Positions 18,564 through 63,387 of a stretch of 64,000 nt of DNA are shown here, piece by piece. The translations under genes and the position numbers were made by a program. Positions within the stretch are counted from its first letter, which is position 1. Each line of letters opens with the position of its first letter. Below the pieces are notes generated by a model. The model had not been told where the DNA came from, searched no databases, and was given only the letters and a program-made list of their open reading frames with translations. Location: positions 1 to 64,000 of the IMG/VR virus record IMGVR_UViG_3300021960_000030; one strand, written 5' to 3'. This DNA comes from a virus.

Positions 18564-18571
18564 TATTTATT
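18564..18571 (-). promoter_or_regulatory. Probable late promoter (AATAAATA)
   Basis: ATAAATA core overlapping the stop of the giant gene, 10 nt upstream of the YHYH gene. Confidence 0.55.
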
Positions 18572-33500: not shown

Positions 33501-36500
33501 AGTAAATCCACCAACACCAGCAACATCAAATGTTGGGTCGGGAGCACCAGAGGCACCGATATTGCTATCGGAAATCGTCAAGGTCTCTCCGTTGTAGTAA
33601 CCAATACCACCCTGATTAACTGTCAAGGAAACGTCACCAGTCGAGGAGATGCCTACATCGAAAGTGGCACCAGAACCAGTGCTGTTTAGATCGGTGCTAG
33701 TTGCGGGGACGTTAATGTAGTTGAAACCACCAATAGCGTTGACTTGGAACGTCAGTGCAGGTGCACCACCGCCACCCAGTTGGGAGTCCTGAACAGTGAT
33801 TGTTTCATTGATCGCAAACGAAATACCGCCACCAGTAACGGTAATGATACCAGCACCAGATCCATTAACAGTAATGTCGAAGTTTGCACCAGTACCAGAT
33901 CCAGATGTTGTGTAAGATACGTTTGTATATGTTCCAGCAACTCTGGAAGGATTGGCAGCACTCACGTTACCAACACCGAGGATATTACCACCACGGAGAG
34001 CATTAGCAGCAGAGATGTTTGCCATCAGGGTGACGCGACCACCTCTTGCTTGGTCTGCACCACTGATGCTATTCACGGATGCGATAACACCACCACGTCT
34101 TGCATCTGCAGCAGAGAGGTTATTAACAGCGTTAACTGCACCACCACGTCTTGCCTCAGCACCACTGAAGTTGTCGAGGGCAATAACGGTACCTGCACGA
34201 ACAACATCTGCAGAACTAAATCCACCAACGGTAGAAATCTTACCTGCACGAAGAACATTGACAGCAGTGGAAGTTGTCAGTGTACCAATGTTTGTCGCTC
34301 TAATCTGCTGAGCAGAAGAGATAGATCCAAGACTACCAACACCAGCACCGCGAGTTGCAGTAATGCCAGTAACGTTGTTAATGGCAGAAATAAATCCACC
34401 AGTACCCTCAGAACCATCAAAACGATATGCTGCCACCTGATCGGACTTTTGCTTCTGACCAAAGATGATCAGGTCGCCAGAATCATCAACCGAGTGGGTT
34501 GTTGCCTGTACACCAACAGTGTCAACATCTTCAATCGTGCTTTGCTTAAGAATGGTGCCATCAAACTTGATGTAGTGTGCAGCAACCTTTCTTACATTCT
34601 CAGCATACTTGGTATCTGTAACCAGAGTCACATTGCCAAAAATATCAATCTTGATGTCAGCATTCTTGATAGAAACGAACTGGGTGCTAGGAGCAAGTGT
34701 CTTATACCAAGACCAAACGGGTTCGTTAGCATTGATTTGATCAACACCCAGTCTAGCAATACCAACAGCAGAGTTCTTCTGGAGGGCATTGTTGAAGATA
34801 TCAAAGGTCAGATATACATCATTGTAGCTATCCATGGTGAACCGAGGATTCTGCGGTCTACCACCAGAGATATTGATGTTCTTAGCGTAAGAGAGTTCAA
34901 TGTTGTTACCATCAAAGAAGAACTCACCAATGATGATGTAATAGTCGGACATGTTCATGCCGACAAACAGATATCTAGCGTCACCAAGATGCATGATCTG
35001 GTGCATACGCTCATCATCACCAGAAGAGGAGAACTTACGCTTCTCTCTCATCTCACCGTCTTCATTCATCTGAATGACCCACATGTCATCGGGGTCAGGT
35101 GAGTTAGTATCGGTATAACCGCAGAGGTATACTCTTTCTTCTTCGCCAAGAGTAACACCCATCGCATAATCGCGACGAGTTGTACCAGAGACGCCAGAAA
35201 TCTCTTTCTGATATCTTACTTGCCCTTCAGGTTGGTTTGCATTGTCAAATGCAGACTCATACTTGACAAGGAGAATATCGGGTCTGTTATTAGCATTGTC
35301 ATACTCTGTTTCACCAACAACATAGATGATGTCGTTTTCTGCACGCTCATCAAGGTACATTTGCTTGAAGCGAGCAGTCTTGACGTTACCATCGTTGGTT
35401 TCAAGAGTGCGATCCCAGATCAGATCACCAACATCGCTAAACTTGGCAATCCAGGCACCAGTTGTGCCATCAGGTTTGGTGACAGAACCACAAACGTAGA
35501 CATAGCGGAGGGAACTTGTCAGAGAGTGATTGACGTTGAATACGCCAAGGGTTTCTTCACTCTGAGTGGTTTCTCTGTACTCGCCAGCATAGTAACGAGT
35601 TTTCTTGAAGATTTGGGGGTGAGAAACGCGAACTTGGGGAGGATTCTCAGGATCGTAGCTGTTACCAGAGTTGACGATTTTGATTTGAGTATCAGTGATC
35701 TGACCAGTCTGGGTAACGTTGATATTGAATACAGCGTCCTTACCAGAGGTCGTGATCAGTTCATATGACGGAGGAATCGATTCGTTGTAACCAACACCCT
35801 CCTGATCAATGACAATATCCTCAATACCAGAAACAACCTTTGTATAGTATGTCTTGTTGGTATTATCGGGGATAACTGCAGATCTGACGATTACTTCATC
35901 GCCAACATACAGTTCATGGTTGCCATCGGTGGTAATCTTACCGTATACAATGTCGTTCTCGATGACTTTTTGATATCCGAGGATAGTGAGACCTTCCACG
36001 GCAGAAACCGCAGCAGAAGCACCAAAACCACCAGATCCCTCGTTATTGAAGAAGATAACGTCATCTACCTGATAAGAAACACCAGGGTTCTCGATAACGA
36101 ATCCGTCAATCTGAGCAGACTCGAACTTAGTGATAGTTTCGACTTCAATGTCAACTCTAGACTCGTCAGAAACGGTCGGGAAGTAATCGTAGATTTGCAG
36201 AGTCGATTCTTCGGACAGTTCAATGACTTCCAACTGTTCATTGGAGTCAATGATGCCATCACCATTGGTATCTTGGATTTCCAGAACCAGAGGGTATGCC
36301 TCAAGTTCTGTAGTCAGAATATCTGGTTCTCTGTTGGGTTGACGGTCAACATCGATATCAACTTCAGTGAACGGATCGCGGAAACGGACAACATCGGAAG
36401 GAATATTATCCTGAGTCGCATTCTGACTCATATTCCACTGATCGGGTTGAGAATAGAACTCAGGACCCAGAATGTAGGGGAATACTGCTTGACCAGCGTC

Positions 36501-39500
36501 AGACTCGTCAATAGTTACAAAATATGCATAGGTACCATCGGGATACTCTGGTGTCTTACAGAAACGACCGTTGTAGGGGTCCAGATCGCCCAGTTGGAAG
36601 GCATATTCATAGTCATCAATGAATGTACCTGCAGGATACTGACTCAGTGGAGGACCATCACCACGAGTCGGATTCGGATTGGAATCTACCTCATAAACCA
36701 GTGCAGTCTTCTGACGATAGGAAGAACGCAGTCTTCTAAGACCACTATTTTGGTCTGTGGGATCAATATATCCATAAGGACCGTAAATCGGGTTGCCATC
36801 ATACGCCCAACCAAGAATCGGGGAGTGCTCATTGTTAGCAGTCTGTTCTTGGAATGTATTTGTTGCAGGATCCAGGAATACGTTGTCACCAACCACATAA
36901 CGCAGTTCTTTGGGGTCAACGAGGTGAGCATACTCACCACCAAACTGGTTGTTGTATCCAGTGAAGACATAACCTCTAGCAAAGTCATATTTGTCTGCCA
37001 GATCGTAATGCAAGTTCTTTGTCCACTGGAAAACGTTGGGGGAGAACTGTGCAAACTCACCAACTGCATTCAGACGAATAGTTGTATTGCCTTGAGTGTA
37101 GTTAATACCTTTGTTGAGGATTTGGATGCTAATAACCTTACCCTTATCTTCACCAATGGTGCCAATAACTGCCTTTGCAATAGCACCGAAACCATCACCA
37201 TTGATGACGACGTTGGGTGCAGTTGTATATCCACTACCAGAGTTAATGATAGCGATAGAGACAATGCGACCATTGATAACGATTGGTTGTGCAAGAGCAC
37301 CAGAACCAGAGTTCAACTTAATGGTCGGAAGGTCGGTATAACCAGAACCAGCATTGGTGAGGCTTACTGCAGAGATAGGACCACGAACACTAGCGGTTGC
37401 AGTAGCACCCTGACCGCCACCACCAGTGATGGAGATGATCGGTTGAGAGGTATACCCAGTTCCAGGTTGTTCAACCAGAACACGACTTACTCTTCCACCA
37501 GTGATAACTGCTTGTGCTGTAGCACCGATGCCACCACCACCCACAACAGATACCAGGGGTTGAGTTTGGTAACCAGAACCACCGTTGGTAACTTCAATGC
37601 TAAACAGAGAACCATTAACGGTTACTTCTGCAGTTGCACCAGATCCACCACCACCTGTGATCTCCAGTTGAGGTTTATTGCCTGCATCGTACCCTTTACC
37701 ACCATTAGTGATGTTAATGCCCGTCAGAGGACCATATCGAAGGAACTCAGAGGACTTATAGGACCATACCGAAACACCATTGACCCATGCACCAACGGCA
37801 CTATTCGACTTGATAGTTTCACGCTTAGAAACCGTAGTTACCTTTCTGGGGAAACGCAGCAGTTTACGCTGGTTGCCAGGGATAAGTGCTGTTCCAATGA
37901 AAGGACCAATCTTGTAGTTTGGAAGACCCGTTGCAGCAGCATAAACATACTGTGCATTAAAGAACGAGTTTTGGATGTTGCTGGTAAACGGTGTAATCGC
38001 AGTATTGATCGCAGTAACGTCAGACTTACCACGGTTTAGGTCAACCGACAACAGAATATTGCCCTGAGGAACAATATTTGTAGGAGCAAGCATCTGATAA
38101 GAGAACGTATACTCGTCAAGACGTGCTGTGACTTGGAAGGTGCCGTTATAGACAGTTGGGTTTGCACCATACACTGTCACGTTATCTTCCACCAGAAGAC
38201 CGTGAGGATTAGATGTAACAATGGTTGCGGTCTGATTATTCTGACCACCAGGAGTTACAGTATCAACAGCGATAAGTTTTTTGACGTTATACAACCAAGA
38301 AGACAGTTTTTCGTCCTGATCGGTAGCACCAAGAGATGCAACAGTCAGTTTGTCGCCTTCAAGATAGTAGGAACCAGTATCATCAAGAGTTGTGCTTCCT
38401 GCCTCAGCAATACCCAGAATACGCAGTTTGCACTGCTGAGCAGTGCCATAGTTGACGTAAACGTAGATATCAGAATATACAACGGTGCCAGGATCCCAAT
38501 CCTCTACAACACCGTTCTTGGAACGAGTACATTCGATGAACTGGTTCAGAGAACGCTCTTTGTATTGAACAATCTCTTCGTCGTTGATACGAATGGTACC
38601 GTTTCTTGCTGGCCAACCAATCGTAGAGTCAACTGTAATGATCTGATCGGTTGTGCTCAGGAACTCAACAAGTTTCGTCTTGTATGGGATGATAAACGTG
38701 CCCTGCAGGGTTTCTTCAGAGATAGACAGTTCATAAATGGTGTCAGTACCCTTAATGATCGAAATAACGTTCTCGATCAGTGCAGAGGCGGAAGTTACGT
38801 TGATATCAACCTCATCAGGAATCTGTACCAGCTCACCGTTGATCAGATCGTTGGGATTACCTTCAATAAGGGTTGCACGGAGGATTGTGTCAACAACCCA
38901 AGTAGCAGCAGAGGGAGAAATGACTTCATCGCGAGGATAATAGACATCGATCTCTTCACCAAAGAGAACTTTGAACAAGAACTGGGTTGCAGTCTTGGTA
39001 CCCTTAGATACATAGAAATCTCGAATACGCTTGATAACCTGAACAGGGTTTACCTTTGTGTAATCGAGTTGAATGGTTGGCAGGTATTGACGACGGATCT
39101 TATCGAAGATCTGACGCAGGAATAATGTATCAAGAGACGTAACAGTCGCACCAGCAACGTGATTGCTGAGTCTGAGTTGTCCTTCTGTTGCAAAGATTTG
39201 GTTTCCTACGTTATCATAGGTGATTGTTCCGCTGGTGCCACGCACACAGCCCACCAGAGCAGACGGTTTGTAACCGTTGCCAGATGTGTTGATTTCAAAT
39301 CCAGTAACCTCATCGAAACCAATATCTACCGATGCTCTAGCAGCAGAAGGTTCAGCAATGTAGATTTTTGGAGGGAAGTTGGTATCGTATCCTTCACCAA
39401 AGTTGGTGATACTAATGTCAGTGATCTCACCGTTAAAGATAGTTGCAACTGCAGTTGCACCTCTACCACCGATCGGCAGACCAGCGGCATCTTTGCGGTC

Positions 39501-41138
39501 GTCAACAATGTATACAGACGGGGGGTCAACATAACCCTTACCGCCAGTCAAGAGTTGAATATCGGTAACCGAACCAGAAGCAACAGTAACACCCAACACC
39601 TGAGCACCAACAGGTTGGATGATGCGTGCTCTAGGAACGGTTGTATACCCTCTACCACGGTTTGTGATCACCACTTGGACCAAAGTACCCTCAGGGTTCA
39701 ATACAGAGACCGCTTGGGCGTCAATACCGTCCACAGGAGCTTGATCGATATAAACCAAAGGAGGGTTGGAATATCCAAAACCACCAGCAGTTACCTGAAT
39801 GGTATCAGTAATCAAACGACCTTCGCTATCGATCTCGGGATCGGTAATAACTGCACCAGTGGGGTTTTTGAAAGTAACCGCAGGGATAAAATCGTAACCA
39901 GAACCAGAGTTTGTGATTTTAAGGGAACTTACTTGACCAGTTGCATCGTCAATAACCAGTTCTGCTGTTGCTTGAGTACCAAACGGATCTGTAGGAGGTG
40001 CAATCTCGATCAGCGGGGGGTTGTAAGATGTATAACCCTGTCCACCACCGATGAGGTTGATATTTTTAGCACCACCGATCAAACTACGAGCAGTTGCACC
40101 AACACCACCAAGGTCAGAAGGAGTAATCGTGACTTTTGGAGCAAACTCAAGACGATAACCACTACCACCGTTCTTGACCAGCAGATCGATCAAGTTTCCT
40201 TCTTCATTAACAGCGGAAACAATCTGTGCACCAGAACCAACGTTGGGAGAGATATACTCAATCGAACGAATAGTCAGTCTTTCACTAGAAGACAGTTGCA
40301 GACCACGGAACTCAATATATGTGCCATCATTGGAAGTCTGATAGATCACATAGTCAATGTATGGTCTTTGGAAGATACCATTCCTATTGACGATCAGACC
40401 AACTTCTGATACGGGAGTGTAGAACTGAGTACCAGAACGAAGAGGGTGAGTTTTAGAACCATCTTTAATCGGATTTTCATCCAGAGTGTCGATAATGATG
40501 TCCGCAAAACCAACCATGTAGATGATGGAGGTTGTGTTGGGATCATCTGTACCAAGTCTTGCTCTAGGGGGAGTTGCAAGGCGAATCTTGTCGCCTTCAA
40601 CGTAATAATCCTCACCAGGGATTTGTGCTACGCCATATACACGCACAACAAGGTGATCTGCCGAGACAGGTTGAATCGGTTCACCCAGGAATCTCAGATT
40701 GAAGGTATTTTGAACGCCATCGAAGTATTGGAAAGGAGATTCCAGAAGTTGTTCTTTCTTCTTGAACTCTTCAGTCGAAATACCAGGGGTCAGAATCGCA
40801 TCAGGACCTCTAGTCAGTGATTCGTAGTAGATAACTTCATTATCAATCAGAACACTACCGTTCTGCTCGATAAATCCATCGATGGACTCGACTTCGATCA
40901 GGTCTTCGACAAACCCGATATCTTTTAGTAGAGTAGTGCCAGCAGAGAGGGTTCTCTGTGAATATGAATCAACGTCGAGGTACAGGTTGACGTTATTCAG
41001 GATATCGAATGGCCTACCTGTCTTTTCCTGTGATTTGTAATATTCAAACAGGAAGTTTACGAACTGCTGATCCTCTTCCCTGATAAAATCAGGTACCTGA
41101 TAAGCAACTCTGTCAGATACGTTGATGTTCTTTTGCAT
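18567..41138 (-). CDS. Giant 7523-aa gp7-like baseplate wedge/structural protein; multidomain (Gly-rich beta repeats, YHYH-like part, beta-propeller, two LamG/ConA-like domains, nested repeats, phycobiliprotein-like domains, Ig-like C-terminus)
   Basis: Directly downstream of gp6. QVPDFIREEDQQFVNFLFEYYKSQE, IKRIRDFYVSKGT..FLFKVLFGE and IQDSYFYQNFSYVIKS..HPTGFNMFG motifs resemble cyanophage gp7-like proteins. One uninterrupted frame. Confidence 0.85.
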   Translation of the reverse strand: MQKNINVSDRVAYQVPDFIREEDQQFVNFLFEYYKSQEKTGRPFDILNNVNLYLDVDSYSQRTLSAGTTLLKDIGFVEDLIEVESIDGFIEQNGSVLIDNEVIYYESLTRGPDAILTPGISTEEFKKKEQLLESPFQYFDGVQNTFNLRFLGEPIQPVSADHLVVRVYGVAQIPGEDYYVEGDKIRLATPPRARLGTDDPNTTSIIYMVGFADIIIDTLDENPIKDGSKTHPLRSGTQFYTPVSEVGLIVNRNGIFQRPYIDYVIYQTSNDGTYIEFRGLQLSSSERLTIRSIEYISPNVGSGAQIVSAVNEEGNLIDLLVKNGGSGYRLEFAPKVTITPSDLGGVGATARSLIGGAKNINLIGGGQGYTSYNPPLIEIAPPTDPFGTQATAELVIDDATGQVSSLKITNSGSGYDFIPAVTFKNPTGAVITDPEIDSEGRLITDTIQVTAGGFGYSNPPLVYIDQAPVDGIDAQAVSVLNPEGTLVQVVITNRGRGYTTVPRARIIQPVGAQVLGVTVASGSVTDIQLLTGGKGYVDPPSVYIVDDRKDAAGLPIGGRGATAVATIFNGEITDISITNFGEGYDTNFPPKIYIAEPSAARASVDIGFDEVTGFEINTSGNGYKPSALVGCVRGTSGTITYDNVGNQIFATEGQLRLSNHVAGATVTSLDTLFLRQIFDKIRRQYLPTIQLDYTKVNPVQVIKRIRDFYVSKGTKTATQFLFKVLFGEEIDVYYPRDEVISPSAATWVVDTILRATLIEGNPNDLINGELVQIPDEVDINVTSASALIENVISIIKGTDTIYELSISEETLQGTFIIPYKTKLVEFLSTTDQIITVDSTIGWPARNGTIRINDEEIVQYKERSLNQFIECTRSKNGVVEDWDPGTVVYSDIYVYVNYGTAQQCKLRILGIAEAGSTTLDDTGSYYLEGDKLTVASLGATDQDEKLSSWLYNVKKLIAVDTVTPGGQNNQTATIVTSNPHGLLVEDNVTVYGANPTVYNGTFQVTARLDEYTFSYQMLAPTNIVPQGNILLSVDLNRGKSDVTAINTAITPFTSNIQNSFFNAQYVYAAATGLPNYKIGPFIGTALIPGNQRKLLRFPRKVTTVSKRETIKSNSAVGAWVNGVSVWSYKSSEFLRYGPLTGINITNGGKGYDAGNKPQLEITGGGGSGATAEVTVNGSLFSIEVTNGGSGYQTQPLVSVVGGGGIGATAQAVITGGRVSRVLVEQPGTGYTSQPIISITGGGGQGATATASVRGPISAVSLTNAGSGYTDLPTIKLNSGSGALAQPIVINGRIVSIAIINSGSGYTTAPNVVINGDGFGAIAKAVIGTIGEDKGKVISIQILNKGINYTQGNTTIRLNAVGEFAQFSPNVFQWTKNLHYDLADKYDFARGYVFTGYNNQFGGEYAHLVDPKELRYVVGDNVFLDPATNTFQEQTANNEHSPILGWAYDGNPIYGPYGYIDPTDQNSGLRRLRSSYRQKTALVYEVDSNPNPTRGDGPPLSQYPAGTFIDDYEYAFQLGDLDPYNGRFCKTPEYPDGTYAYFVTIDESDAGQAVFPYILGPEFYSQPDQWNMSQNATQDNIPSDVVRFRDPFTEVDIDVDRQPNREPDILTTELEAYPLVLEIQDTNGDGIIDSNEQLEVIELSEESTLQIYDYFPTVSDESRVDIEVETITKFESAQIDGFVIENPGVSYQVDDVIFFNNEGSGGFGASAAVSAVEGLTILGYQKVIENDIVYGKITTDGNHELYVGDEVIVRSAVIPDNTNKTYYTKVVSGIEDIVIDQEGVGYNESIPPSYELITTSGKDAVFNINVTQTGQITDTQIKIVNSGNSYDPENPPQVRVSHPQIFKKTRYYAGEYRETTQSEETLGVFNVNHSLTSSLRYVYVCGSVTKPDGTTGAWIAKFSDVGDLIWDRTLETNDGNVKTARFKQMYLDERAENDIIYVVGETEYDNANNRPDILLVKYESAFDNANQPEGQVRYQKEISGVSGTTRRDYAMGVTLGEEERVYLCGYTDTNSPDPDDMWVIQMNEDGEMREKRKFSSSGDDERMHQIMHLGDARYLFVGMNMSDYYIIIGEFFFDGNNIELSYAKNINISGGRPQNPRFTMDSYNDVYLTFDIFNNALQKNSAVGIARLGVDQINANEPVWSWYKTLAPSTQFVSIKNADIKIDIFGNVTLVTDTKYAENVRKVAAHYIKFDGTILKQSTIEDVDTVGVQATTHSVDDSGDLIIFGQKQKSDQVAAYRFDGSEGTGGFISAINNVTGITATRGAGVGSLGSISSAQQIRATNIGTLTTSTAVNVLRAGKISTVGGFSSADVVRAGTVIALDNFSGAEARRGGAVNAVNNLSAADARRGGVIASVNSISGADQARGGRVTLMANISAANALRGGNILGVGNVSAANPSRVAGTYTNVSYTTSGSGTGANFDITVNGSGAGIITVTGGGISFAINETITVQDSQLGGGGAPALTFQVNAIGGFNYINVPATSTDLNSTGSGATFDVGISSTGDVSLTVNQGGIGYYNGETLTISDSNIGASGAPDPTFDVAGVGGFTYTNVASTNNGVGVNATFNVTIDGVGAATVVQVNQGGLAYAAGNTVTISDTLLGNNGAANLTFNVATITAPSTYTNVPVTSTTGIGTGAVFNVTIDASGAASVVSGNPAGLSYAVGDTITIADSSLGNSGAADLTFDVATIKAPPLYSNVATTTNGLGSGLTLQVTINADGSVAFLNVTSPGNGYVVGDTITIADADVGNTGASNITAEVSSVGGGAIYNVSNYTSTGSGTGAQFAITVDSSGAIILVNITNTGNGFVAGETVTISDSELGNRGAANFTFNVTATNGITYSGISTWTSTNNGFGGGTGATFNITLDNLGNFTSLTPVNRGQNFVLNDVVTIPDSQLGNTGAPNLQMTVASIQGHTYNNVSATTNGTGQYATFNVTVDGTGLATPVVNNPGQEYQVADTFTITDAQLGNFGGNNLTFAVAALQDITYSNISAAGGNGVNATLDVNVAANGIVTVGMNKTGRGYLIGNTLTVTDSQLGGYGYSDITFDVQTTINVFDETKLNRGTPQYYNATDASIDAVAYKWGTGSTKLEAANHYGITSLDLNTSEWTLQGWFRIDTATQSLNNSQPTFFETHPNDGSNPSNTLRLFVDGDSGSASYGKLKLLWQGSNVVAESVSATVWATFAADAWVHIALSKTQPTLGAYDFACYVNGQQLALWSGSTTNIGIDEVYVGGIKVPTTYTTLLGNIDDFVIDDDSQYSGASFTLPTAAVPIRTTNSGVSIYKIDRQHDRRGTFALTDLPNSTSVAFVADGNWTYNNQTQPLMSTWAIGPGGLQILDYAEVTSQLQTGIYTFDYDQVLYGSKTSTVPSPGGKRLVLIPVVTPKYYIKDARYQKIDSVQQLTFNQEVRFTKGEILQQYNDQGTTQRYGTIVEIPAGTIENPGLGTTYRIGNIFPAAATFNLTDKIRSTSATDTGLNVIAGITFTVARDIPEWEQAASYIAGDQVYSAGNIYTASTNGTAGTNEPVHTTGNASDGGVSWDFTTTGNTPIEVDLANTAYPTPKDPLWEKLKIYDIGAVVYYGRNKYTCVGAGRTSQNPPTHSTGTATDGTVQWEHTLTYDPLSDYATFKEFDAGENWYSITVDEIYSDSNFIANDNLSIGGSVTVNPKEDAPTILQINGVGSVKQISLVAVLDKTILVKTQTRTDLVYCVANSAHKYSANDILFTEGFSTSEFNGSFFVKEVFSSRDFTFQVRGVPANEPGFLQNSIARVNIYTKHPTLLLIRNHNYVFDMSDSSNLGYYLSFSQDNEFKLEYSFNNIERQGTPGIYDGTNAPFVKLKVDGQVTNISYYFDPSRTGANSPVGGTSFIDVKKTPFDGTYKVSSIVSTNEFQFPLDFEPENTNAEIGSDDQNRPYSDYSTTSKRAIGPIADIKLISAGGFYQKLPIISDIASFRQIERVEILSGGSEYAIGTYDQVPINGDGEGGLCRITVEVDEEIGSGTIVSVVVTDPGKGYTVATVDVDGIQGILGPTLTGSGADLGVIIPDEGSGASVFLTGKNIGKIKKLKNNEFGYGYSHDYTLKPEITFPINLQLFNTSILSQITITDPGAGYTSAPAVIIEGGGGVGAEAVAIVKNNRLSEIQIKNPGAGYSSEPSVTLKSEFNYVVNLDLNYLQFNFPHGITNGAAVQFRADDVGNTVGELPKPSSAGLTSLVVGQIYYAIAGETNSLEGDQLRFALTPADAESGNFITFLTQGAGRQVLLTEVFGGRAKAVVETSRFLEGEKVYQGDSEEDATVTAFVSENNGWQIGPKILKLVNATGNFVVGERVNGSVSRASGVIDNVSLAKGVLNIDSLTQTPGKFIDDVGKPSEIVQKIQDSYFYQNFSYVIKSTIPINRWREQILENNHPTGFNMFGQLQLTGGKDISGRKVGTEFIKQVNINEYTNVNQVTSFGAAQPIYSDFNNTEVLFRKKRLTNSEEILTSIVKKLDDISGEFDGIQTGFNLTVEGEQVIVKNNQLLITLNGIIQAPVDAYDVVGGQIVFKEAPKAPSKVVYRDVGLEFLTITRLNLSDVSGIYPEIGYQVSGAASDALGTVVASGTNTIDIVAIVGGPFQNNERIDVSALGFSALIASQTVLTQSTLYEFDETLVCTNRSRGNPTAQVNAINLDENGDPNSAIVVSKTTGTAKYETGVFDFRLQDIVYSTRSSLAARITFLAPYRDPVTNDVVGEQILTAGSSFYGLLFERIVSTSYPNILLDDISKSTITPTELFDDEERINAYFLDFEEVRSSEVTYTNLTNGVFGNGDEIRNIKVFYNNPIYGAAYGTAAPRYYDARNRIAASKDEIIDFATAEISVEHEDFYYPGQPQTDPRSRFRDGYRLVIKNKSWIVAKTYQDMILQYPSLVVPNSDKCKRDLGHFIDAVAYDMYAGGNKYARKFIQMYYTSQGLGYINQQLAETTWAYGRAADYMADAITNQLFGTETIDAVVYTKYQDLTVTEGGATYGAPGTISNTDTAACADVRAAVDTLATAITETLLGNQDFEDIDPEEPSYNATEDKCRRDVGYFVDGLASDVGQGGNLGVVTWARFYFQNGTFISNGVAGEEAETITALNKARDLAKRAINNLLYEKDLTILNDPASYGGTAPGHDYDVNYANGNNQSDTNCADVQSTIDTLTTIATTAINNQTLANINALSSIDDGSFRDGETVRVIKIAYKNKSTGLFNRLDNVRGVTSGTTMSLEGVNSGLKWLFATSAGVGGTFAADEYITNSTLTNPGAAQVTQSVLNVKTDLANSTKSLKFVANSWLKQAESYDFDFGTGDFTLEGWFYPTGIVGQQTLFDLRRTAGTGLMVEINNDTLRVYSGSGNLVIISNAVFTANTWHHVAVVRTSGVMLAYVDGVQAGGSATNNDDFGWGPCYVGSNLTGSNGFIGNADQIAVYKGYAKYTAGFTAPTSNNWDDERIVLGLNAEQPFIVSTSEVYAQFSGQTVSSATAKRIDYEDKRVIVEDIDLGRDSHRNAADLILKNDKWIAEVAVGRMKAKYSDFVMPGDDPATNTYQGTYYCLRDTEEFILDAIIKDLKYGGDYYTTVAAKGYLEKDGSLEFIGKELLQSLYAWEQAGELCKYVVTTTDTDLTDTYSEKLRIPLTGTAATQQVLDNIDALTQNILNILAPTGDRFRDAGDALWLNRDYIAEEVVGYIENKWEVTINGTYYDKLQIPGGNNGQICIRDIKQYIIPAIIADLLTGGNAAVNEVIDFYLNGEQDILHVSEELLPMLDAISYTKYLSTKAINQLLVQFGQAPNPAQGTTNVDDYYIAQYTQKVPYIDHGVTVDPQGYNANRADNNQLIDAADMIERNKKQIATEAVMRMNDLAKFQDLQIPGGQQNCIDDVVGFIEALVHDIRLGGNSKVYDAAELYIEPENNSLRHIESEAEASIYAYKMARDICILAMRNGFGRDNIYGYGAGEENDPSVESYDQNGVASRYVDAANILDRNIRFIAEEAVYRTTVQYPALVIPGGNINCVHDIADTLNAIVFNMKYGGNNMVYDAAEFYVGTAGLQHVASQSTESVYAFNQARDIAIQVMRAVPVINTGNEVHGFEQKYYDELDYEPYKFRTRDYVTLDENALTGGTTANRSRAADAYNLIYNNARWIAEGVVNTFVATNGWTIPNGTVSCIDDTERILKGVAYHVAYGGNSYVWDYANEYVQNGHIGSPQNGWTQAIFNYINSSILPDVIRNIQPVAANSWNAAGRTTLTQYRDLTITADVTQPACPTEVSAATTLLSIVTDAVVNGNMNHASRTVPPGGGACSNVESSINDLFGIVTDTITNYTTLGGVTRTLPTIWPMKYTADSAERDLTITYDQSASSWGNTCQNVAVVINDLFDIVLQTITDASASSPSNYLQSITRTVPTDGFTNTLYQQYTCYNVIDAAWTLFDLMLDSLGSGSYSNRLTAEFIRKNDHAITGRAVAATLAQYPSGNIPDLAYAQDVLEACIYDIATGGNAGAFKLANEWFDGEGNFIAYPTIQRIRLLYCMNKVREYAKDVMFNFDNPAWTPYDVWSPEQVQGYTPRLEWDQESTEFNMDSSLNCLEFAIERGTFPSDNVVTFVASTDVQNLNNSYNEGEDYNTDPALVLLTPTIEVGWEREENRVRINRTNFFRRGDVLKYVLASATSLDGANDQDFYYVLNAEAQWFEISRMPKHDARFRDFTLDTTNTGNQQFFTARRAGVTRVTNDFGIRDIQTPISAGFNIADVLVGTTTGTSAEVSSTFINNAKVVKTFKYYGLETMSTTTFIDGEQVVVQGSTGNNGYVMQHVTPDEFDNGWIKIETLQGTISQGDILEGIDSGATATVTAVAEDRLLLNTKTGIFTQGDWLFKKDTATEAYIDVYNDKRGVLIGTGGGRITMDVETINSAWTPGDVIYGSVTDKYLDLVGIEDNGQAISVNTYVHGQKVYKLSLTSVSRDTGYTGNFNSGDTVYLLQGTTIAVPGITATVSKWDNRPNDGINDLYLTSPVQTGGGNLPINTFGAGGYNVGKFENLNNFPLIFASGNFVETTYSAYGKIAKIEQTGTTARCWLEEVVGDFLTNMTITSDGGWQAGVSLARDLIGRVNRYFRGFDGSQTTFKLTIANGEQYLPDPAGHMLIFVNGILQPPGAAAAYTASSDEITFTEAPEVGSEFIGYYIGKLRQLDDISFEFDSLRSSFNLKYQGGFYSLTLTEGVSSNTILPENNIIVSLNGIIQEPGVGYEIVGSRIIFSEIPRAGTTFVSFSYIGSDADVIAATVVPPIEAGDQLFIEGENELEPREVALIESSNSLVTFEYTGTVKGRNAAALANIRQGTLSAAIITNPGNGYTTRPNVDVISSSGFDGRVRAQMGVASIQVKTPGVGYALPTVSVLTTVADDFTTPQGAPINGGFDVYAGEAIDATTGETITIESGAIQITRQPLNITVNQGQTAVFNVIAVFNAADGDPLGVTEGLNYQWQKKNYGETDWNNIIGANQSIYTTSSTIQGDDGDEYRVAITYAGATPVYSNSSVLKVQTGATVIANFVPSSIFAQ
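21440..26702 (-). repeat. About eight phycobiliprotein-like helical domains inside the giant protein, split by a LamG-like domain at ~24.8-25.3 kb
   Basis: Repeating R..DA...I..N...IA.EAV......P....PGG...C..D......A...D...GGN pattern. Confidence 0.75.
32004..34400 (-). repeat. Nine 17-aa repeats followed by nine ~70-aa repeats inside the giant protein
   Basis: 33942-34400 is exactly 9x51 nt, each unit ending in Arg; then nine units of the TY.NV...G.GA.F.VT...G..Y..G.T.TI.DS.LG..GA..LTF.V type. Confidence 0.9.
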
Positions 41139-59990: not shown

Positions 59991-60326
59991 TCATTGGGGG
60001 CGCTCTCCTTCAGGTAGCATATCGTTGCCAGGATGTTCAGGAATGTAACCATGGTATGCTTTGTGATTGTAGAAGTGTGAATCTTCTATTTCAATCTCAT
60101 CCCAATCATGTTGATAGATTAGCAAACAACATTGTGTTGTTGGTTGTCTAGCAGATGGGTCACCGTGTTCATATTCATGAAAACACATTGAGATGTAATC
60201 ATTACAGGTAAAGCAGATGTAACCCTCTAAACCTTTGTACCGAATGGGTGATCCGATCTCAAGTGATTTCAAGATGTTCCTGATCTCCAGGGCAACTGAC
60301 TCTGAGATTAGCAGGGGTGTGGTCAT
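59991..60326 (-). CDS. Hypothetical protein
   Basis: ATGA-coupled; GYICFTCNDYISMC..CCLLIY. Confidence 0.7.
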   Translation of the reverse strand: MTTPLLISESVALEIRNILKSLEIGSPIRYKGLEGYICFTCNDYISMCFHEYEHGDPSARQPTTQCCLLIYQHDWDEIEIEDSHFYNHKAYHGYIPEHPGNDMLPEGERPQ

Positions 60327-60955
60327 ATTGTCAACCTATTGGTACAGTCTCCGTACTGTCCATGCAACCAATAGTTGAACGCAACACTATACCGATCCGA
60401 CAGACTTCGGTTAGGTTCAACACTATGCTCTACAGTTGATGGGAACAGCAATATCAATGCTTCCTCAGCAGGTATAGACCAGCACGATGAGTTGTAGACA
60501 TTGTGCTCAACAATATCAGGTCTCATTGCTGGTGTTGTATATGTGTCACGATTGGAATCTGCGTGAAACAATATATCCCCACAGTTGGGTGGCGTCTTTA
60601 TGTATATGACACCACTATACATTGAGTTGCAATGTGTATGTTTGTGTGCAGAATGACCTATTTTGTGTCTAGTTGCCCACGAACAATGATGCCGTGCTAC
60701 ATATCTCTTATCGAAGCACAGTATGTTATACAAATAGTGATTCAGATGTCTCTCAACCAGTGCCTTTAACTCTGGGCACCCATCTAATAGTCTTTGGTTG
60801 GAAGTATTCTCACCATTCTTCTCTTGTGGGTCAGAATAATACTCCTGATTAACAACATACTCCACTATCTCTGTAGACAGTGGAGCATTGCGAGACACAT
60901 ATAATGGATTGTTGAACAGTGGAAAGACTGATCTATCGTAATCACCTAAGTTCAT
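60323..60955 (-). CDS. Putative 2OG-Fe(II) oxygenase, TIGR02466-like
   Basis: HTHCNSMYSGVIYI, LLFPSTVEHSVEPN and RYSVAFN. Confidence 0.88.
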   Translation of the reverse strand: MNLGDYDRSVFPLFNNPLYVSRNAPLSTEIVEYVVNQEYYSDPQEKNGENTSNQRLLDGCPELKALVERHLNHYLYNILCFDKRYVARHHCSWATRHKIGHSAHKHTHCNSMYSGVIYIKTPPNCGDILFHADSNRDTYTTPAMRPDIVEHNVYNSSCWSIPAEEALILLFPSTVEHSVEPNRSLSDRYSVAFNYWLHGQYGDCTNRLTI

Positions 60956-61560
60956 AGCACCAAATCTCGTGTGGGTGCACTGAAGTCACCCTTCATGATT
61001 ACATTAAATCCTAATGAATATCTATCTTGTATAGACTCATTGTATCCTGTGTAGTGGTCTACATGTGCAGGGAAGCATACAATCATGCCACGCTCAGGTA
61101 CAATCTGCCAGATGCGTGAGTTGAATATATTATTCTCCCATGTTCGTGGTTCCAATGTACCTGTGTTCCATGTGGCATGATTATATGATGCCTCAAAGAT
61201 AATGTTGCCACTATCATCAGGCACGTCAAGATACAGGCAACCTGTGAACATACTATTGGTATGTCCATGCCTGTCTGCTCTTTCACCTGGGCGATGTTTA
61301 TTCACCCATGAGCATACAATCTCACACGTCACTCGATCATCAATAGCGAGGACATTGTGAGCATAGTGGGCAATATGTCCAAGACAAATGTGATGCAGTT
61401 GTGGATACCTTCGTAAAATCTGAGTATCAACAGTCTGCATCCCATCTGCCCGCTTGGGGTAATCCTTATATTCTTCCTGTTTGATTAAATCTATCTCATC
61501 TTGTGGAATGTCATAGGTGTCAACAAATACAGGTGTGGAGAATATAGGAAAGACAGTCAT
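60952..61560 (-). CDS. Putative 2OG-Fe(II) oxygenase, TIGR02466-like
   Basis: HGHTNSMFTGCLYL, CFPAHVDHYTGYN and RYSLGFN. Confidence 0.88.
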   Translation of the reverse strand: MTVFPIFSTPVFVDTYDIPQDEIDLIKQEEYKDYPKRADGMQTVDTQILRRYPQLHHICLGHIAHYAHNVLAIDDRVTCEIVCSWVNKHRPGERADRHGHTNSMFTGCLYLDVPDDSGNIIFEASYNHATWNTGTLEPRTWENNIFNSRIWQIVPERGMIVCFPAHVDHYTGYNESIQDRYSLGFNVIMKGDFSAPTRDLVL

Positions 61561-61796
61561 TTTTCAGTGGGTTCAAGATGTAATGTAGTAACGATCTCAT
61601 GAATCGTAGCACGTTGTTTAGGACTGATGTCTCCCTGCCTTTTATAGAGGTCAGAGAGTAATAGTAACATTGCCCTCTTAAGTAATCCTTTTGCCTCGTG
61701 ACTAAGTTGTGCTGACTTGAGGAACATCGGTCTCGTTCTCCTTACGAGTTTCGTAGTATTGTCCGACGATAGTGACACGGTTGCCCTTGAAACCAA
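61557..61796 (-). CDS. Small hypothetical protein (true start probably the internal MFLKSAQ)
   Basis: Fills the gap between the lyase and an oxygenase; ATGA overlap downstream. Confidence 0.55.
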   Translation of the reverse strand: MVSRATVSLSSDNTTKLVRRTRPMFLKSAQLSHEAKGLLKRAMLLLLSDLYKRQGDISPKQRATIHEIVTTLHLEPTEK

Positions 61797-62211
61797 TCGT
61801 CTGTCGTAATCTTACCGTGTCATTATGTAAAAGTCGAATCTCTTCACGAAATCTTTGTTTTCCATATTCTGTATCAAAGAGGATAGTATCCTCATCAATC
61901 ATAGTTACATCAGTCATGGTGGGACTGGAGGTCATATATCCCTGAGAGCGATACATCTTCCCATCCTTACTATTGATTCCGACAAGCATCTCACCAGATG
62001 AAGCAGGTTCACCTGAACTATATTTAACAGTTTCCCATCCAAACTTTACATAATAGTCACTGTGGACATCTTCTGGGATGACTGCTTTCTCAGCATCATT
62101 TAGTTCACCAACGAGGAGTTCACTGGTCATGAGTTCTGCACTCTCACCATACAAATATCTACGGTGGGAATGCCATTCACCTTTCGATCTATCGAACCAT
62201 TGTGTAATCAT
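61702..62211 (-). CDS. Phycobiliprotein (bilin) lyase, CpcS/CpeS (S/U-type, CpcV-like) family
   Basis: WFDRSKGEWHSHRRY, GKMYRSQGY, TEYG..FREEIRLL..RLRQT and GQYYETR match the S-type lyase pattern FF.S.G.W.S.R / G.L.R..GY / T.Y....EE.....R.R / E.R. Confidence 0.75.
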   Translation of the reverse strand: MITQWFDRSKGEWHSHRRYLYGESAELMTSELLVGELNDAEKAVIPEDVHSDYYVKFGWETVKYSSGEPASSGEMLVGINSKDGKMYRSQGYMTSSPTMTDVTMIDEDTILFDTEYGKQRFREEIRLLHNDTVRLRQTIGFKGNRVTIVGQYYETRKENETDVPQVSTT

Positions 62212-62744
62212 ACTGACCTCTTCAGATTTACATTTAGAACGACACGAATGCCTTCCTTGGGTGGTGTTGATGCATGTAGAATATGTCCAGGGAAATGTAC
62301 TACACGACCCTGCCTACAGTCTACACTATCAGTGAGTTCTAGTCTGTCATTGAAGAACAACGTGGGTGCTTTTTCGTTTTCAGTTATATACCACAACACC
62401 ACGTCATGTTCCTCACTGAAGTCTACATGTGGTTTGTTATGTTTCTTCTTGGTAGGATACAACAAACCCAATCGTGCACGATATATATCCTCATGACTAT
62501 ATCCATACAGACTTGCAAACTGACACAACTCTAGATGAAATAGATCATAGTATGGTGATCGTACCTCATAGTCCATCTTTAATAGATGCATGAATGCACC
62601 ACCACCAGAGGGCACAAGGTCTGTGGCATCAGGTATATAATGCCATGGAAACTCAGGCGAGGTAACTATACGTTCAATCTCTTTTGTTGCTACATCAGAG
62701 ATTAAGTGCGTATTGATTTCTGTCTGGTTTGTTCTCAGGATCAT
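62208..62744 (-). CDS. 2OG-Fe(II) oxygenase
   Basis: FPWHY, PHVD, GRVVHFPGHILHASTPP and RVVLNVN. Confidence 0.85.
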   Translation of the reverse strand: MILRTNQTEINTHLISDVATKEIERIVTSPEFPWHYIPDATDLVPSGGGAFMHLLKMDYEVRSPYYDLFHLELCQFASLYGYSHEDIYRARLGLLYPTKKKHNKPHVDFSEEHDVVLWYITENEKAPTLFFNDRLELTDSVDCRQGRVVHFPGHILHASTPPKEGIRVVLNVNLKRSV

Positions 62745-63387
62745 GCCAACATGGAATACTTAGGGACAGTCGTTCTTGATCAGGACGAGCACAATGATAG
62801 CAGCGTGATGGTATATACAACATGTCTCCAGGTTGTAGTACCGTATCGATTGCAGGTGTTACTTCATCCTTACTAGGATTATAGGGGAATCCAGTATATT
62901 TGACAAGTGTACTCACTCTCTCATTATATACTGTCCAGTGTGTCTCACCATGTATTTGCATGATGAAGTTTGCTGGTTGATCCCAATGAATCTTGAATGA
63001 ACTTGCACCACCTAATGCACCATAAATGTGTGCATCACATGCTACATCGAATGTACCCTCAATCCTACGCAGCAATGCATTAACACGAGCATTGTGATGA
63101 CCATACTTAGCGATCACAAATGTGTTGTTCCTATTGACAAGTTCAAAGATAACTTTCTTGTCTGGATGCCAGTTACCATGCCACGGGTGAGGCACAGTGG
63201 GCATAGGAACTTTGGTGTTGTTGTTATCTAAAATCTCAACATTATACACCCAGGGATTGTTTAGGCAATGCTCAACATCTGCCCAGTGCACATACTCTGT
63301 GGGTGTGTCACATACACCCTTGAATAACATCGGGGTGTCACCACATGTGTAGTGGTTAGGATTCAGAAATGGATACGAAATGGACAT
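62695..63387 (-). CDS. JmjC/cupin (ROX/YcfD-like) hydroxylase
   Basis: AHIY..SFKIHWD..NFIMQIHGETHW..LQPGDMLYIPSRCYH..RLSLSI. Confidence 0.85.
   Translation of the reverse strand: MSISYPFLNPNHYTCGDTPMLFKGVCDTPTEYVHWADVEHCLNNPWVYNVEILDNNNTKVPMPTVPHPWHGNWHPDKKVIFELVNRNNTFVIAKYGHHNARVNALLRRIEGTFDVACDAHIYGALGGASSFKIHWDQPANFIMQIHGETHWTVYNERVSTLVKYTGFPYNPSKDEVTPAIDTVLQPGDMLYIPSRCYHCARPDQERLSLSIPCWHDPENKPDRNQYALNL

What the first reader, a model, noticed from the sequence alone, without database searches (positions are those of the whole stretch)
61702..62211. Phage S-type bilin lyase that may chromophorylate the phage's own structural protein
Seen in sequence: a 169-aa ORF with CpcS/CpeS-family motifs. 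Established knowledge: S/U-type lyases attach bilins at Cys82/84-equivalent sites, and T-type lyases serve Cys153/155. Phage bilin genes are usually read as support for host photosynthesis. Inference: this genome encodes its own Cys84-like and Cys155-like acceptor sites, so the lyase, plus any cpeT/pebS/pcyA/ho1 elsewhere in the genome, may be a virion maturation pathway. The link is not positional, since the genes lie ~35 kb apart.
Basis: partly seen in the sequence, partly recalled or inferred. Interest (0 to 1): 0.85.

Follow-up and report, generated by a model that had tools for sequence, protein, structure and literature searches.

The report
Cyanophage S-type bilin lyase gene
This marine cyanophage carries a genuine bilin-attaching enzyme (S-type lyase) and, 35 kb away, a giant tail/baseplate protein with eight phycobiliprotein-like modules that keep the pigment-binding cysteine, but across genomes the lyase does not travel with those modules, so a link between them is possible and unproven.

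Summary
ORF 61702-62211 (-) is a complete CpeS-family lyase: Pfam 55 bits, predicted 10-stranded barrel closest to the S-type lyases 4TQ2 and 3BDR, key bilin-binding residues conserved. The "own acceptor sites" are also real. The 7,523-aa virion ORF holds eight phycobiliprotein-fold modules (Z 15.6 to phycoerythrin beta) whose Cys aligns to alpha-Cys84. Across about 1,450 copies of this module family, Cys, Arg and Asp of C-x-R-D are 98, 95 and 99% conserved.

Ten complete or nearly complete (at least 79%) S-lyase genomes have no modules. No S-lyase was found in 17 module-bearing isolate genomes or 50 module-bearing IMG/VR contigs. Module-associated S-lyases fall in two unrelated branches of the lyase tree. 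The T-type lyase CpeT occurs only in module-bearing genomes (16 of 21, against 0 of 12), but that reflects one clade (1-2 events).

Best reading: an auxiliary lyase of a known phage kind (cpcV-like), here in a new lineage alongside cpeT, most likely acting on host phycobiliproteins. Self-chromophorylation of the virion remains an open, testable minority hypothesis.

The parts
61702..62211 (-). S-type (CpcS/CpeS/CpcV-family) phycobilin lyase, 169 aa
   Evidence: ORF; PF09367 55.2 bits, full length; predicted barrel closest to 4TQ2 and 3BDR; GtCPES E136, R146 and R148 equivalents E123, R134 and R136 are invariant or nearly so in 43 homologues
18567..41138 (-). Giant 7,523-aa virion structural (baseplate/tail-fibre type) ORF that carries the candidate acceptor modules
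   Evidence: ORF; phrog_701, phrog_2885, phrog_4527 and others (virion structural, baseplate wedge, short tail fibre); Pfam YHYH, Laminin_G_3, Phycobilisome
21561..26561 (-). Array of eight phycobiliprotein-like modules (aa about 4860-6526 of the giant ORF); 7 of 8 keep the Cys84-equivalent, 8 of 8 the Asp87-equivalent, 4 of 8 the Arg86-equivalent, and 3 of 8 a second, Cys155-like cysteine
   Evidence: HMM mapping; whole-genome profile search
26094..26561 (-). Module 1 (aa 4860-5015): K-C-K-R-D with Cys4894 (codon 26457-26459) and second Cys4999; this is the module that was folded
   Evidence: Model pLDDT 94.8, pTM 0.89; PE beta 5aqd_M Z 15.6, rmsd 2.3 A over 136 residues; ApcE PB domain Z 13.1; all of Foldseek's top ~50 hits are phycobiliproteins; the degenerate DNA motif matches here only, with 0 expected by chance
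25644..26111 (-). Module 2 (aa 5010-5165): K-C-R-R-D with Cys5040 and second Cys5145
62208..62744 (-). Upstream neighbour, 178 aa; its stop overlaps the lyase start by 4 nt; related to phage 2OG-Fe(II) oxygenase families
   Evidence: phrog_274 (E 9e-29) and phrog_81; coordinates
62695..63387 (-). JmjC/cupin-type oxygenase, 230 aa, same strand
   Evidence: PF08007 77 bits
60323..61560 (-). Two tandem 2OG-Fe(II) oxygenases (60952-61560 and 60323-60955) downstream of the lyase
   Evidence: PF13759 61.8 and 72.6 bits; phrog_81
61557..61796 (-). 79-aa TTG ORF that overlaps the lyase 3' end by 95 nt; coding status uncertain
   Evidence: ORF list; weak phrog_712 hit, E 5.9e-6

Best explanation
ORF 61702-62211 (-) encodes an intact, probably active S-type phycobilin lyase of the compact phage 'cpcV-like' kind. 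By homology (inferred), it holds a phycobilin (PEB or PCB) inside a lipocalin-like 10-stranded barrel through conserved Glu and Arg residues. It then presents the bilin in the right conformation to a Cys82/84-type site on a phycobiliprotein-fold acceptor, so that the thioether bond forms stereospecifically. The most likely acceptors are the host Synechococcus phycobiliproteins during infection, which makes it an auxiliary metabolic gene like phage cpcV and cpeT. The gene sits in a tightly packed, co-directional array of 2OG-Fe(II)/JmjC oxygenases typical of cyanomyovirus accessory regions. Shown here: family membership, fold, conserved bilin-binding residues, and distribution across genomes. 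Inferred: activity, bilin type, acceptor.
For: Family and fold. Functional residues mapped from GtCPES mutagenesis (bioRxiv 10.1101/2020.03.31.018853) through the phmmer alignment (numbering offset 15 checked on R18/H21/N22): E136->E123, R146->R134, R148->R136, R18->R17, W69->W59; all are invariant or at least 90% conserved in 43 homologues. Homologues are annotated as S-type lyase or CpcV in S-CBWM1, S-CRES1-3 and S-CREM2, and PMC10665884 treats them as AMGs. At least ten complete or nearly complete (79% or more) S-lyase phage genomes have no phycobiliprotein-like module, so in those phages the acceptor cannot be a virion module. On the lyase tree this protein groups with such module-less relatives (L190, S-CBWM1). 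The simplest reading is the same host-directed role here.
Against: No phage S-type lyase has had its acceptor shown experimentally, as far as the papers I could read show. The 'lid' Trp75 needed for transfer to CpeB in GtCPES is a Tyr here by the phmmer alignment, and that segment is deleted in most compact phage homologues, so acceptor recognition may differ from cellular lyases. The same genome encodes seven Cys84-type sites on a phycobiliprotein fold, which are potential acceptors of exactly the site class S-type lyases serve. No close relative was found in cyanobacterial genomes; the only three hits are MAG contigs, probably mis-binned phage DNA, so this is not a recent host copy.
Confidence: 0.55

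Rival explanations
1. Virion maturation. The S-type lyase, alone or with the phage CpeT, attaches host- or phage-made bilin to the Cys84-like (and CpeT to the Cys155-like) cysteines of the phycobiliprotein-like modules in the giant baseplate/tail protein, so the virion carries covalently bound bilins.
For: The modules have a phycobiliprotein fold (Z 15.6; Pfam). The module Cys, Arg and Asp align to alpha-Cys84, Arg86 and Asp87. These are the most conserved positions in about 1,450 copies: Cys 1418/1453, Arg 1380/1453, Asp 1442/1453, against about 15% mean column identity. A single conserved, unpaired Cys is unusual for a virion protein. Two independent S-lyase lineages sit in module-bearing T4-like phages. 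CpeT is found only in module-bearing genomes (16/21 against 0/12), and in Syn1 it lies one tRNA and one oxygenase gene upstream of a module gene. Two near-complete jumbo T4-like phages with 11-19 modules carry an adjacent heme oxygenase + bilin reductase pair but no psbA and no lyase.
Against: S-lyase and modules do not co-occur in general: the table is [[1,20],[5,7]], odds ratio 0.07 (the S+ genomes were picked for being S+). 0/50 module contigs and 0/17 module-bearing isolates have CpeS. S-lyase genomes without modules are common. Module-associated lyases are not a dedicated clade. The CpeT association reduces to 1-2 events on a helicase tree, and modules exist without CpeT (B3, ACG-2014f, G016, G046). 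B3 has the second Cys in 5/5 modules but no CpeT. Phage pebS and ho1 occur without modules (P-SSM2, S-SSM7). No paper in the library reports pigmented cyanophage virions or phycobiliprotein-like phage domains. The lyase and the modules are 35 kb apart.
Confidence: 0.2
2. Bilin carrier or sequestering protein. The barrel binds a bilin tightly but does not transfer it to any phycobiliprotein; it buffers free bilin or channels it from phage or host reductases during infection.
For: The bilin-binding residues are conserved, but the transfer-critical W75 lid is not. [quoted passage not shown] From my own memory, unverified because the paper (PMC5336146) is not held: the phage T-type lyase PhiCpeT forms a very stable fluorescent PEB complex.
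Against: This protein has an aromatic Tyr at the aligned lid position plus a 12-residue segment that compact homologues lack. There is no direct evidence.
Confidence: 0.12
3. Decaying or non-functional passenger gene in a hypervariable accessory region.
For: It lies among many small accessory genes, and only a minority of cyanomyoviruses carry it (15 of 50,697 phage records).
Against: The ORF is intact, the model is confident, 26 columns are invariant across 43 homologues, a 96% identical copy exists in an independent metagenome contig, and its start is coupled to the upstream gene by a 4-nt overlap.
Confidence: 0.03

Closest known systems
Phage 'CpcV' / S-type phycobiliprotein lyases of S-CBWM1, S-CREM2 (T4-like cluster C) and S-CRES1-3
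   Same: Same Pfam family; 30-39% identity over more than 90% of the length; same conserved core; phage-specific clade without close cyanobacterial members.
   Different: PMC10665884 states that S-type lyases were found only in cluster C phages and S-CBWM1, and that clusters A and B have only T-type lyases. This phage groups by helicase with S-WAM1, P-TIM40 and the S-RIM/Syn19 group and carries both cpeT and the S-type lyase. It is longer (169 against 134-148 aa), with two extra segments of about 17 and 12 residues shared only with L180, L181 and L215/216.
GtCPES (PDB 4TQ2) and CpcS-III/Ycf58 (PDB 3BDR), cellular S-type lyases
   Same: Best structural matches (TM 0.74 and 0.66-0.71); equivalents of E136, R146, R148, R18 and W69 conserved.
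   Different: Only 15-18% identity; about 20 residues shorter; the W75 lid is not conserved as Trp; H21 and N22 have no aligned counterpart in the phmmer alignment.
Cyanophage T-type lyase CpeT (PhiCpeT)
   Same: A bilin-lyase AMG of cyanomyoviruses whose physiological role is called unresolved (PMC3037559). It is co-encoded in this genome.
   Different: Different family (PF06206) and site class (beta-Cys153/155). Far commoner than the S-type lyase, and unlike it, found only in module-bearing genomes in my sample.
Phycobiliprotein alpha/beta subunits and the PB domain of ApcE (for the candidate acceptor modules)
   Same: Same fold (Z 11.6-15.6), Pfam PF00502 hit, and the same C-x-R-D-x-G...G-G spacing as CpcA. 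Like ApcE, the phycobiliprotein-type domain is embedded in a very large multidomain protein.
   Different: The modules lack the N-terminal X-Y helical hairpin (alignments start at chain residue about 38-56). They have a beta-hairpin insert, occur as tandem arrays of up to 26 per protein in virion proteins, and no bound bilin has been shown.

Membership tests
S/U-type phycobiliprotein lyase (Pfam PF09367 CpeS) | Profile match above the curated gathering score over the full domain | tested here: met
   55.2 bits against 23.3; profile positions 2-169 of 170
S/U-type phycobiliprotein lyase (Pfam PF09367 CpeS) | 10-stranded lipocalin-like beta-barrel with an N-terminal helix | tested here: met
   Predicted model pLDDT 92.7 with helix plus 10 strands; top Foldseek hits 4TQ2 and 3BDR. 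This is a prediction, not an experimental structure.
S/U-type phycobiliprotein lyase (Pfam PF09367 CpeS) | Conserved bilin-binding and structural residues (GtCPES E136, R146, R148; E168) | tested here: met
   E123, R134 and R136 align to them and are invariant or at least 90% conserved. The E168 equivalent is probably the invariant E154, but it lies outside the phmmer alignment.
S/U-type phycobiliprotein lyase (Pfam PF09367 CpeS) | Rim tryptophan (GtCPES W75) required for transfer to the apo-protein | tested here: inconclusive
   The aligned residue is Tyr64 in a low-confidence part of the alignment; the segment is absent in most compact phage homologues.
S/U-type phycobiliprotein lyase (Pfam PF09367 CpeS) | Binds a phycobilin and assists thioether formation at Cys82/84 | not testable with these tools
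   Needs a recombinant protein assay.
Phage CpcV-like lyase clade | Groups with phage lyases rather than cyanobacterial CpcS, CpeS or CpeU | tested here: inconclusive
   All 43 database relatives are compact unnamed PF09367 proteins. A genome scan found only 3 MAG contigs and no cyanobacterium. The tree of phage copies places it next to L190 and S-CBWM1. No cellular lyases were included in a tree.
Phycobiliprotein (Pfam PF00502), for the acceptor modules | Profile match above the gathering score | tested here: met
   52.9 bits summed over 2 stretches; the best single module scores 22.3 bits, just over the 22.2 cut-off.
Phycobiliprotein (Pfam PF00502), for the acceptor modules | Phycobiliprotein-type globin fold | tested here: met
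   Z 15.6, rmsd 2.3 A over 136 residues to PE beta. The top 8 hits are all phycobiliproteins or ApcE; sensor globins score Z 11 or less. Foldseek TM 0.55-0.66, but E-values are only 2e-3 or weaker.
Phycobiliprotein (Pfam PF00502), for the acceptor modules | Cys84 attachment site with Arg86 and Asp87 | tested here: met
   Aligned residue-for-residue to CpcA C84, R86 and D87; conserved 97.6%, 95% and 99% in about 1,450 copies; 7/8, 4/8 and 8/8 in this phage.
Phycobiliprotein (Pfam PF00502), for the acceptor modules | N-terminal X-Y helices that mediate alpha/beta monomer formation | tested here: not met
   Structural alignments begin at chain residues about 38-56; Pfam match covers profile positions 38-139. 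The modules are therefore phycobiliprotein-like domains, not phycobiliprotein subunits.
Phycobiliprotein (Pfam PF00502), for the acceptor modules | Covalently bound bilin | not testable with these tools
   Needs virion biochemistry or mass spectrometry.

The most novel reading that the evidence does not exclude
Cyanomyovirus virions are biliproteins. The near-invariant Cys-x-Arg-Asp sites of the phycobiliprotein-like modules in baseplate and tail-fibre proteins carry covalently bound bilins, and phage bilin genes (CpeT widely, this S-type lyase in a few lineages, ho1 plus a bilin reductase in jumbo relatives) serve virion maturation at least in part. That would give the tail apparatus a chromophore, for example for light-dependent adsorption, and would explain why phages of Prochlorococcus, whose hosts lack phycobilisomes, keep bilin genes.
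Probability: 0.2. Interest if true: 0.9.

Novelty: new member of a known kind. Interest (0 to 1): 0.5.

Why it matters
The role of cyanophage bilin genes (cpeT, pebS, pcyA, ho1, cpcV) has been called unresolved since 2008-2010 (PMC3037559). This window pairs an S-type lyase, and a cpeT elsewhere on the contig, with a virion protein that carries seven Cys84-type sites on a true phycobiliprotein fold. The module family keeps exactly the three bilin-contacting residues across more than a thousand divergent copies. That makes a concrete alternative to the 'support host photosynthesis' reading testable with existing phage isolates and existing virion proteomes. The lyase gene on its own is ordinary. 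It extends the known range of phage S-type lyases to a T4-like lineage that also has cpeT, which contradicts the published statement that clusters A and B carry only T-type lyases.

Tried and rejected
1. phmmer of the 601-aa module region against PDB sequences found nothing. Only profiles (Pfam, and my A2 profile) and structure comparison see the relationship.
2. The search for related loci with the single protein returned only two 91% relatives, and with the 8-module alignment it could not build a pattern. I replaced it with a degenerate DNA motif scan.
4. tblastn with this phage's CpeT is too insensitive for census use: it found 139 records and misses S-PM2 and S-RIM2. The Pfam profile also misses some divergent CpeTs: ACG-2014d is negative but annotated and tblastn-positive. 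S-RIM14's 'CpeT-negative' status is therefore uncertain.
5. My reading of PMC3037559 Table 3 suggested that Syn1 lacks cpeT. The genome has an annotated cpeT, so my column parsing of that row was wrong for Syn1. P-SSM2, S-SM2 and S-SSM7 were confirmed CpeT-negative.
6. Sigma-70 promoter and terminator scans around the lyase were no better than shuffles. The only T4-late-like TATAAATA near the cluster lies 7 kb upstream, at contig position 69382-69389. Expression timing cannot be inferred.
7. I rejected the idea that module-associated S-lyases form a dedicated 'long-form' subfamily: they fall in two separate branches interleaved with lyases of module-less phages.
8. Gasper et al. 2017 on PhiCpeT (PMC5336146) is not held, so my recollection of its transfer results is unverified and not used as evidence.
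9. The raw Fisher p-values for CpeT against modules were rejected as evidence of functional coupling after the helicase tree showed only 2 changes per trait.
Full report
WHAT IS THERE. The window is part of a 111,864-bp IMG/VR contig, about 63% complete by CheckV. It comes from a T4-like Synechococcus cyanomyovirus; the closest isolates by nucleotide and helicase similarity are S-WAM1 and the S-RIM2 group. ORF 61702..62211 (-) is real: 169 aa with an ATG start that overlaps the stop of the upstream gene by 4 nt. It matches Pfam CpeS (PF09367) end to end at 55.2 bits against a 23.3 cut-off. PHROGs has no family for it.

THE LYASE. A search of 5.8 billion proteins found 43 relatives, all carrying PF09367 and nearly all compact (137-152 aa) and unnamed. 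One is 96% identical and one 54% identical. In their alignment 26 columns are invariant, among them W13, S15, R17, R18, Y19, W59, R122-E123-E124, R126, and L135-R136-Q137-T138. The phmmer alignment to GtCPES (4TQ2) can be converted to the paper's numbering with an offset of 15, which I checked on R18, H21 and N22. With that offset, the residues shown by mutagenesis to matter (bioRxiv 10.1101/2020.03.31.018853) map as follows: E136 (PEB binding) to E123, R146 (structural) to R134, R148 to R136, R18 to R17, and W69 to W59. The rim Trp75, which is essential for transfer to CpeB, aligns with a Tyr here, and that segment is deleted in most compact phage homologues. AlphaFold2 on this alignment gives pLDDT 92.7: a helix plus a 10-stranded barrel. 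Foldseek's best hits are the two solved S-type lyases, 4TQ2 (E 6.5e-9, TM 0.74) and 3BDR (E 1.6e-7), followed by nitrobindins and lipocalins. So this is a complete S-type lyase with an intact bilin pocket.

IS THE KIND KNOWN? Yes. tblastn finds homologues at 30-39% identity in 15 phage records. They are annotated 'putative phycocyanobilin lyase CpcV' (S-CBWM1) or 'S-type phycobiliprotein lyase' (S-CRES1-3, S-CREM2), or are unannotated (S-H34, S-N03, S-B68, MA01 and others). PMC10665884 describes them as AMGs unique to T4-like cluster C and S-CBWM1, and says clusters A and B carry only T-type lyases. This phage is therefore a new host lineage for the gene. By helicase it sits with S-WAM1, P-TIM40 and the Syn19/S-RIM8 group, and it also encodes a 157-aa CpeT at about 84.2-84.7 kb of the contig. 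A scan of 185,579 prokaryote genomes with the clade's signature found only three MAG contigs and no cyanobacterium.

THE CLAIMED ACCEPTOR SITES ARE REAL. The 7,523-aa ORF 18567..41138 (-) is a virion structural, baseplate-wedge or short-tail-fibre type protein by PHROGs. It scores 52.9 bits on Pfam Phycobilisome. An iterated HMM maps eight modules between aa 4860 and 6526. Their cores read KCKRD, KCRRD, YCLRD, ICIRD, NCIDD, NCVHD and SCIDD; the eighth lacks the Cys. Three modules have a C-terminal helix preceded by a second Cys, the 'C-A-D-V' element. I built a 112-row alignment of modules from IMG/VR loci retrieved with a degenerate DNA motif. Module 1 folds on it with pLDDT 94.8 and pTM 0.89. 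VIA-align puts phycoerythrin beta first (Z 15.6, rmsd 2.3 A over 136 residues), followed by far-red allophycocyanin, the ApcE bilin-binding domain and other phycobiliproteins (Z 11.6-13.4). Sensor globins score Z 11 or less. Foldseek's top ~50 hits are all phycobiliproteins, though with weak E-values of 2e-3 or worse. The module profile aligned to PDB sequences places the module Cys, Arg and Asp exactly on CpcA Cys84, Arg86 and Asp87, with the same spacing to the downstream G-G. The modules lack the N-terminal X-Y hairpin, so they are phycobiliprotein-like domains and not subunits.

THE MODULE FAMILY. An exhaustive HMMER search of 1.84 billion representatives found 626 clusters, 399 of them at E of 1e-10 or better. 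The top 150 range from 256 to 7,903 aa, most of them over 1,000 aa, with up to 26 modules each. In 1,508 module copies from these, the Cys84-equivalent is Cys in 1418 of 1453, the Arg in 1380 of 1453, and the Asp in 1442 of 1453. These are the most conserved columns in a family with about 15% mean column identity. Two caveats apply: the HMM was seeded on motif-bearing copies, and the DNA motif scan selects for the motif. Among isolates the module is in 353 records, all of them cyanomyoviruses, against 419 records with the core helicase. I found no paper describing it.

All results below come from whole-genome profile searches. The positive control found 9, 9, 3 and 6 modules in this phage, S-PM2, S-RIM2 and S-WAM1.
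- S-type lyase, starting from S-lyase genomes: S-CBWM1, S-CRES1, S-CREM2, S-H34 and S-B68 have no module. Of 23 IMG/VR S-lyase contigs of at least 25 kb, only 4 have modules: the 96% twin G001 and the G055-G057 lineage. None of the four that are at least 90% complete does.
- S-type lyase, starting from module genomes: CpeS is absent from S-PM2, S-RIM2 and S-WAM1, from 21 more isolates, 14 of them module-bearing, and from the 50 largest module-bearing IMG/VR contigs.
- The resulting 2x2 table is [[1,20],[5,7]], odds ratio 0.07.
- On a tree of phage S-lyases, the two module-associated lineages are far apart and interleaved with lyases of module-less phages. There is no dedicated subfamily.
- T-type lyase: CpeT occurs in 16 of 21 module-bearing genomes and 0 of 12 module-less genomes (Fisher p 2e-5; helicase-sampled subset p 0.015). 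But on a helicase tree all CpeT-bearing genomes form one clade, and each trait needs only 2 changes, so the association is confounded by descent.
- Modules occur without CpeT in B3, ACG-2014f, possibly S-RIM14, and the jumbo phages G016 and G046.
- In Syn1, cpeT is separated from a 4,017-aa module gene (T4-GC 734, the same cluster as S-PM2d218) only by a tRNA and a 2OG-Fe(II) oxygenase gene, and gp12 follows. Similar proximity holds in S-PM2, S-RIM44, S-CAM3, S-H9-1, ACG-2014h and G047. Those that are on the helicase tree (S-RIM44, S-CAM3, S-H9-1, ACG-2014h) form one subclade.
- The second Cys is frequent in CpeT phages (S-PM2 8/10, Syn1 4/5) and nearly absent in the CpeT-less jumbo phages (0/19 and 1/12), but B3, which has no CpeT, has it in 5/5.
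- Bilin synthesis: P-SSM2 and S-SSM7 have pebS and ho1 (PMC3037559 Table 3) but no modules. Conversely, the two near-complete jumbo T4-like phages (gp23-positive), with 19 and 11 modules, lack psbA, CpeS and CpeT but each carries an adjacent heme oxygenase + bilin reductase pair.

SYNTHESIS. The lyase is genuine and probably active. Its kind is known in phages, and the simplest account is a host-directed auxiliary role, because many phages carry it without any module. But it is not supported by distribution, position or lyase phylogeny. What remains striking is the acceptor side: a virion repeat family that preserves the phycobiliprotein bilin triad. If those sites are chromophorylated, host S-type lyases or autocatalysis would have to do the job in most phages. 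(Autocatalysis is my own recollection of how ApcE binds its bilin and was not checked here.) A phage-encoded S-lyase would then be an occasional booster. I put about 0.55 on the host-directed AMG reading, about 0.2 on virion modules being acceptors of this lyase exclusively or additionally, about 0.12 on a non-transferring bilin carrier, and the rest on other or no function.

LOCAL CONTEXT. The lyase lies in a co-directional, tightly packed minus-strand array running from about 72 kb down to 59.9 kb of the contig. In order it contains a Gly-rich protein preceded by the only TATAAATA in the region (contig 69382-69389), a Trp halogenase, four PF13759 2OG-Fe(II) oxygenases, a JmjC protein and a phrog_274/phrog_81 oxygenase-like protein. 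Both lyase types tend to sit beside 2OG-Fe(II) oxygenases: here, and for cpeT in Syn1, S-WAM1, S-SZBM1 and P-RSM6. I could not infer expression timing.

LIMITS.
- The contig is incomplete.
- IMG/VR absences are uninformative for fragments.
- The CpeT profile misses divergent copies.
- The structural results are predictions.
- The key PhiCpeT paper was not available.

Noticed in passing
window 1-64000: The tetranucleotide AATT is completely absent from the 64-kb window on both strands: 0 found against 289 +/- 14 expected from dinucleotide-preserving shuffles.
   Followed up: partly
IMG/VR records G016 (328 kb, 92% complete; modules at 315.4-325.5 kb; HO 163526-163909; FDBR 164139-164702) and G046 (364 kb, 100%; FDBR 287030-287578; HO 287838-288224): Jumbo T4-like phages (gp23-type capsid) with 19 and 11 phycobiliprotein-like modules. 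They have no psbA, no CpeS and no CpeT, but each carries an adjacent heme oxygenase + ferredoxin-dependent bilin reductase pair. Host unknown.
   Followed up: partly
L166 (Syn1 GU071105: 19938-34946); also S-PM2 LN828717 154417-167723: Conserved gene order cpeT - (tRNA-Leu) - 2OG-Fe(II) oxygenase - about 4,000-aa module-bearing gene (T4-GC 734) - gp12 short tail fibre. cpeT is co-directional with the module gene and 0.7-1.5 kb upstream of it in several genera.
   Followed up: partly
window 60323-63387 and contig 64046-65330 (L144:46-1330): Four PF13759 2OG-Fe(II) oxygenases, a JmjC protein and a phrog_274/phrog_81 oxygenase-like protein surround the S-type lyase. cpeT also abuts a 2OG-Fe(II) oxygenase in Syn1, S-WAM1, S-SZBM1 and P-RSM6. 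The recurrent lyase-oxygenase neighbourhood is unexplained.
   Followed up: no
contig 66418-69389 (L144:2418-5389): Trp halogenase (PF04820, 341 bits), an unknown 190-aa ORF and a Gly_rich_2 protein, preceded by the only T4-late-like TATAAATA of the region. They lie upstream of, and co-directional with, the oxygenase/lyase array.
   Followed up: partly
window 18567-41138: The giant 7,523-aa ORF also contains a YHYH domain (100 bits, around aa 1399-1544) and a Laminin_G_3/ConA-like domain (around aa 5293-5419). 21 of its 31 cysteines lie in aa 4634-6561, which is the module array.
   Followed up: partly
L141-L143 (MAG contigs CAYZUY010000037, DGOV01000074, RFXV01000057): Phage-type S-lyase genes sit in MAGs labelled uncultured bacterium, Proteobacteria UBA4457 and Flavobacteriia. 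These are probably phage contigs mis-binned into bacterial MAGs.
   Followed up: no
G055 (29146-29782) and G057 (28662-29526): These module- and S-lyase-bearing IMG/VR contigs appear to carry two tandem compact CpeT genes (147 and 151 aa).
   Followed up: no
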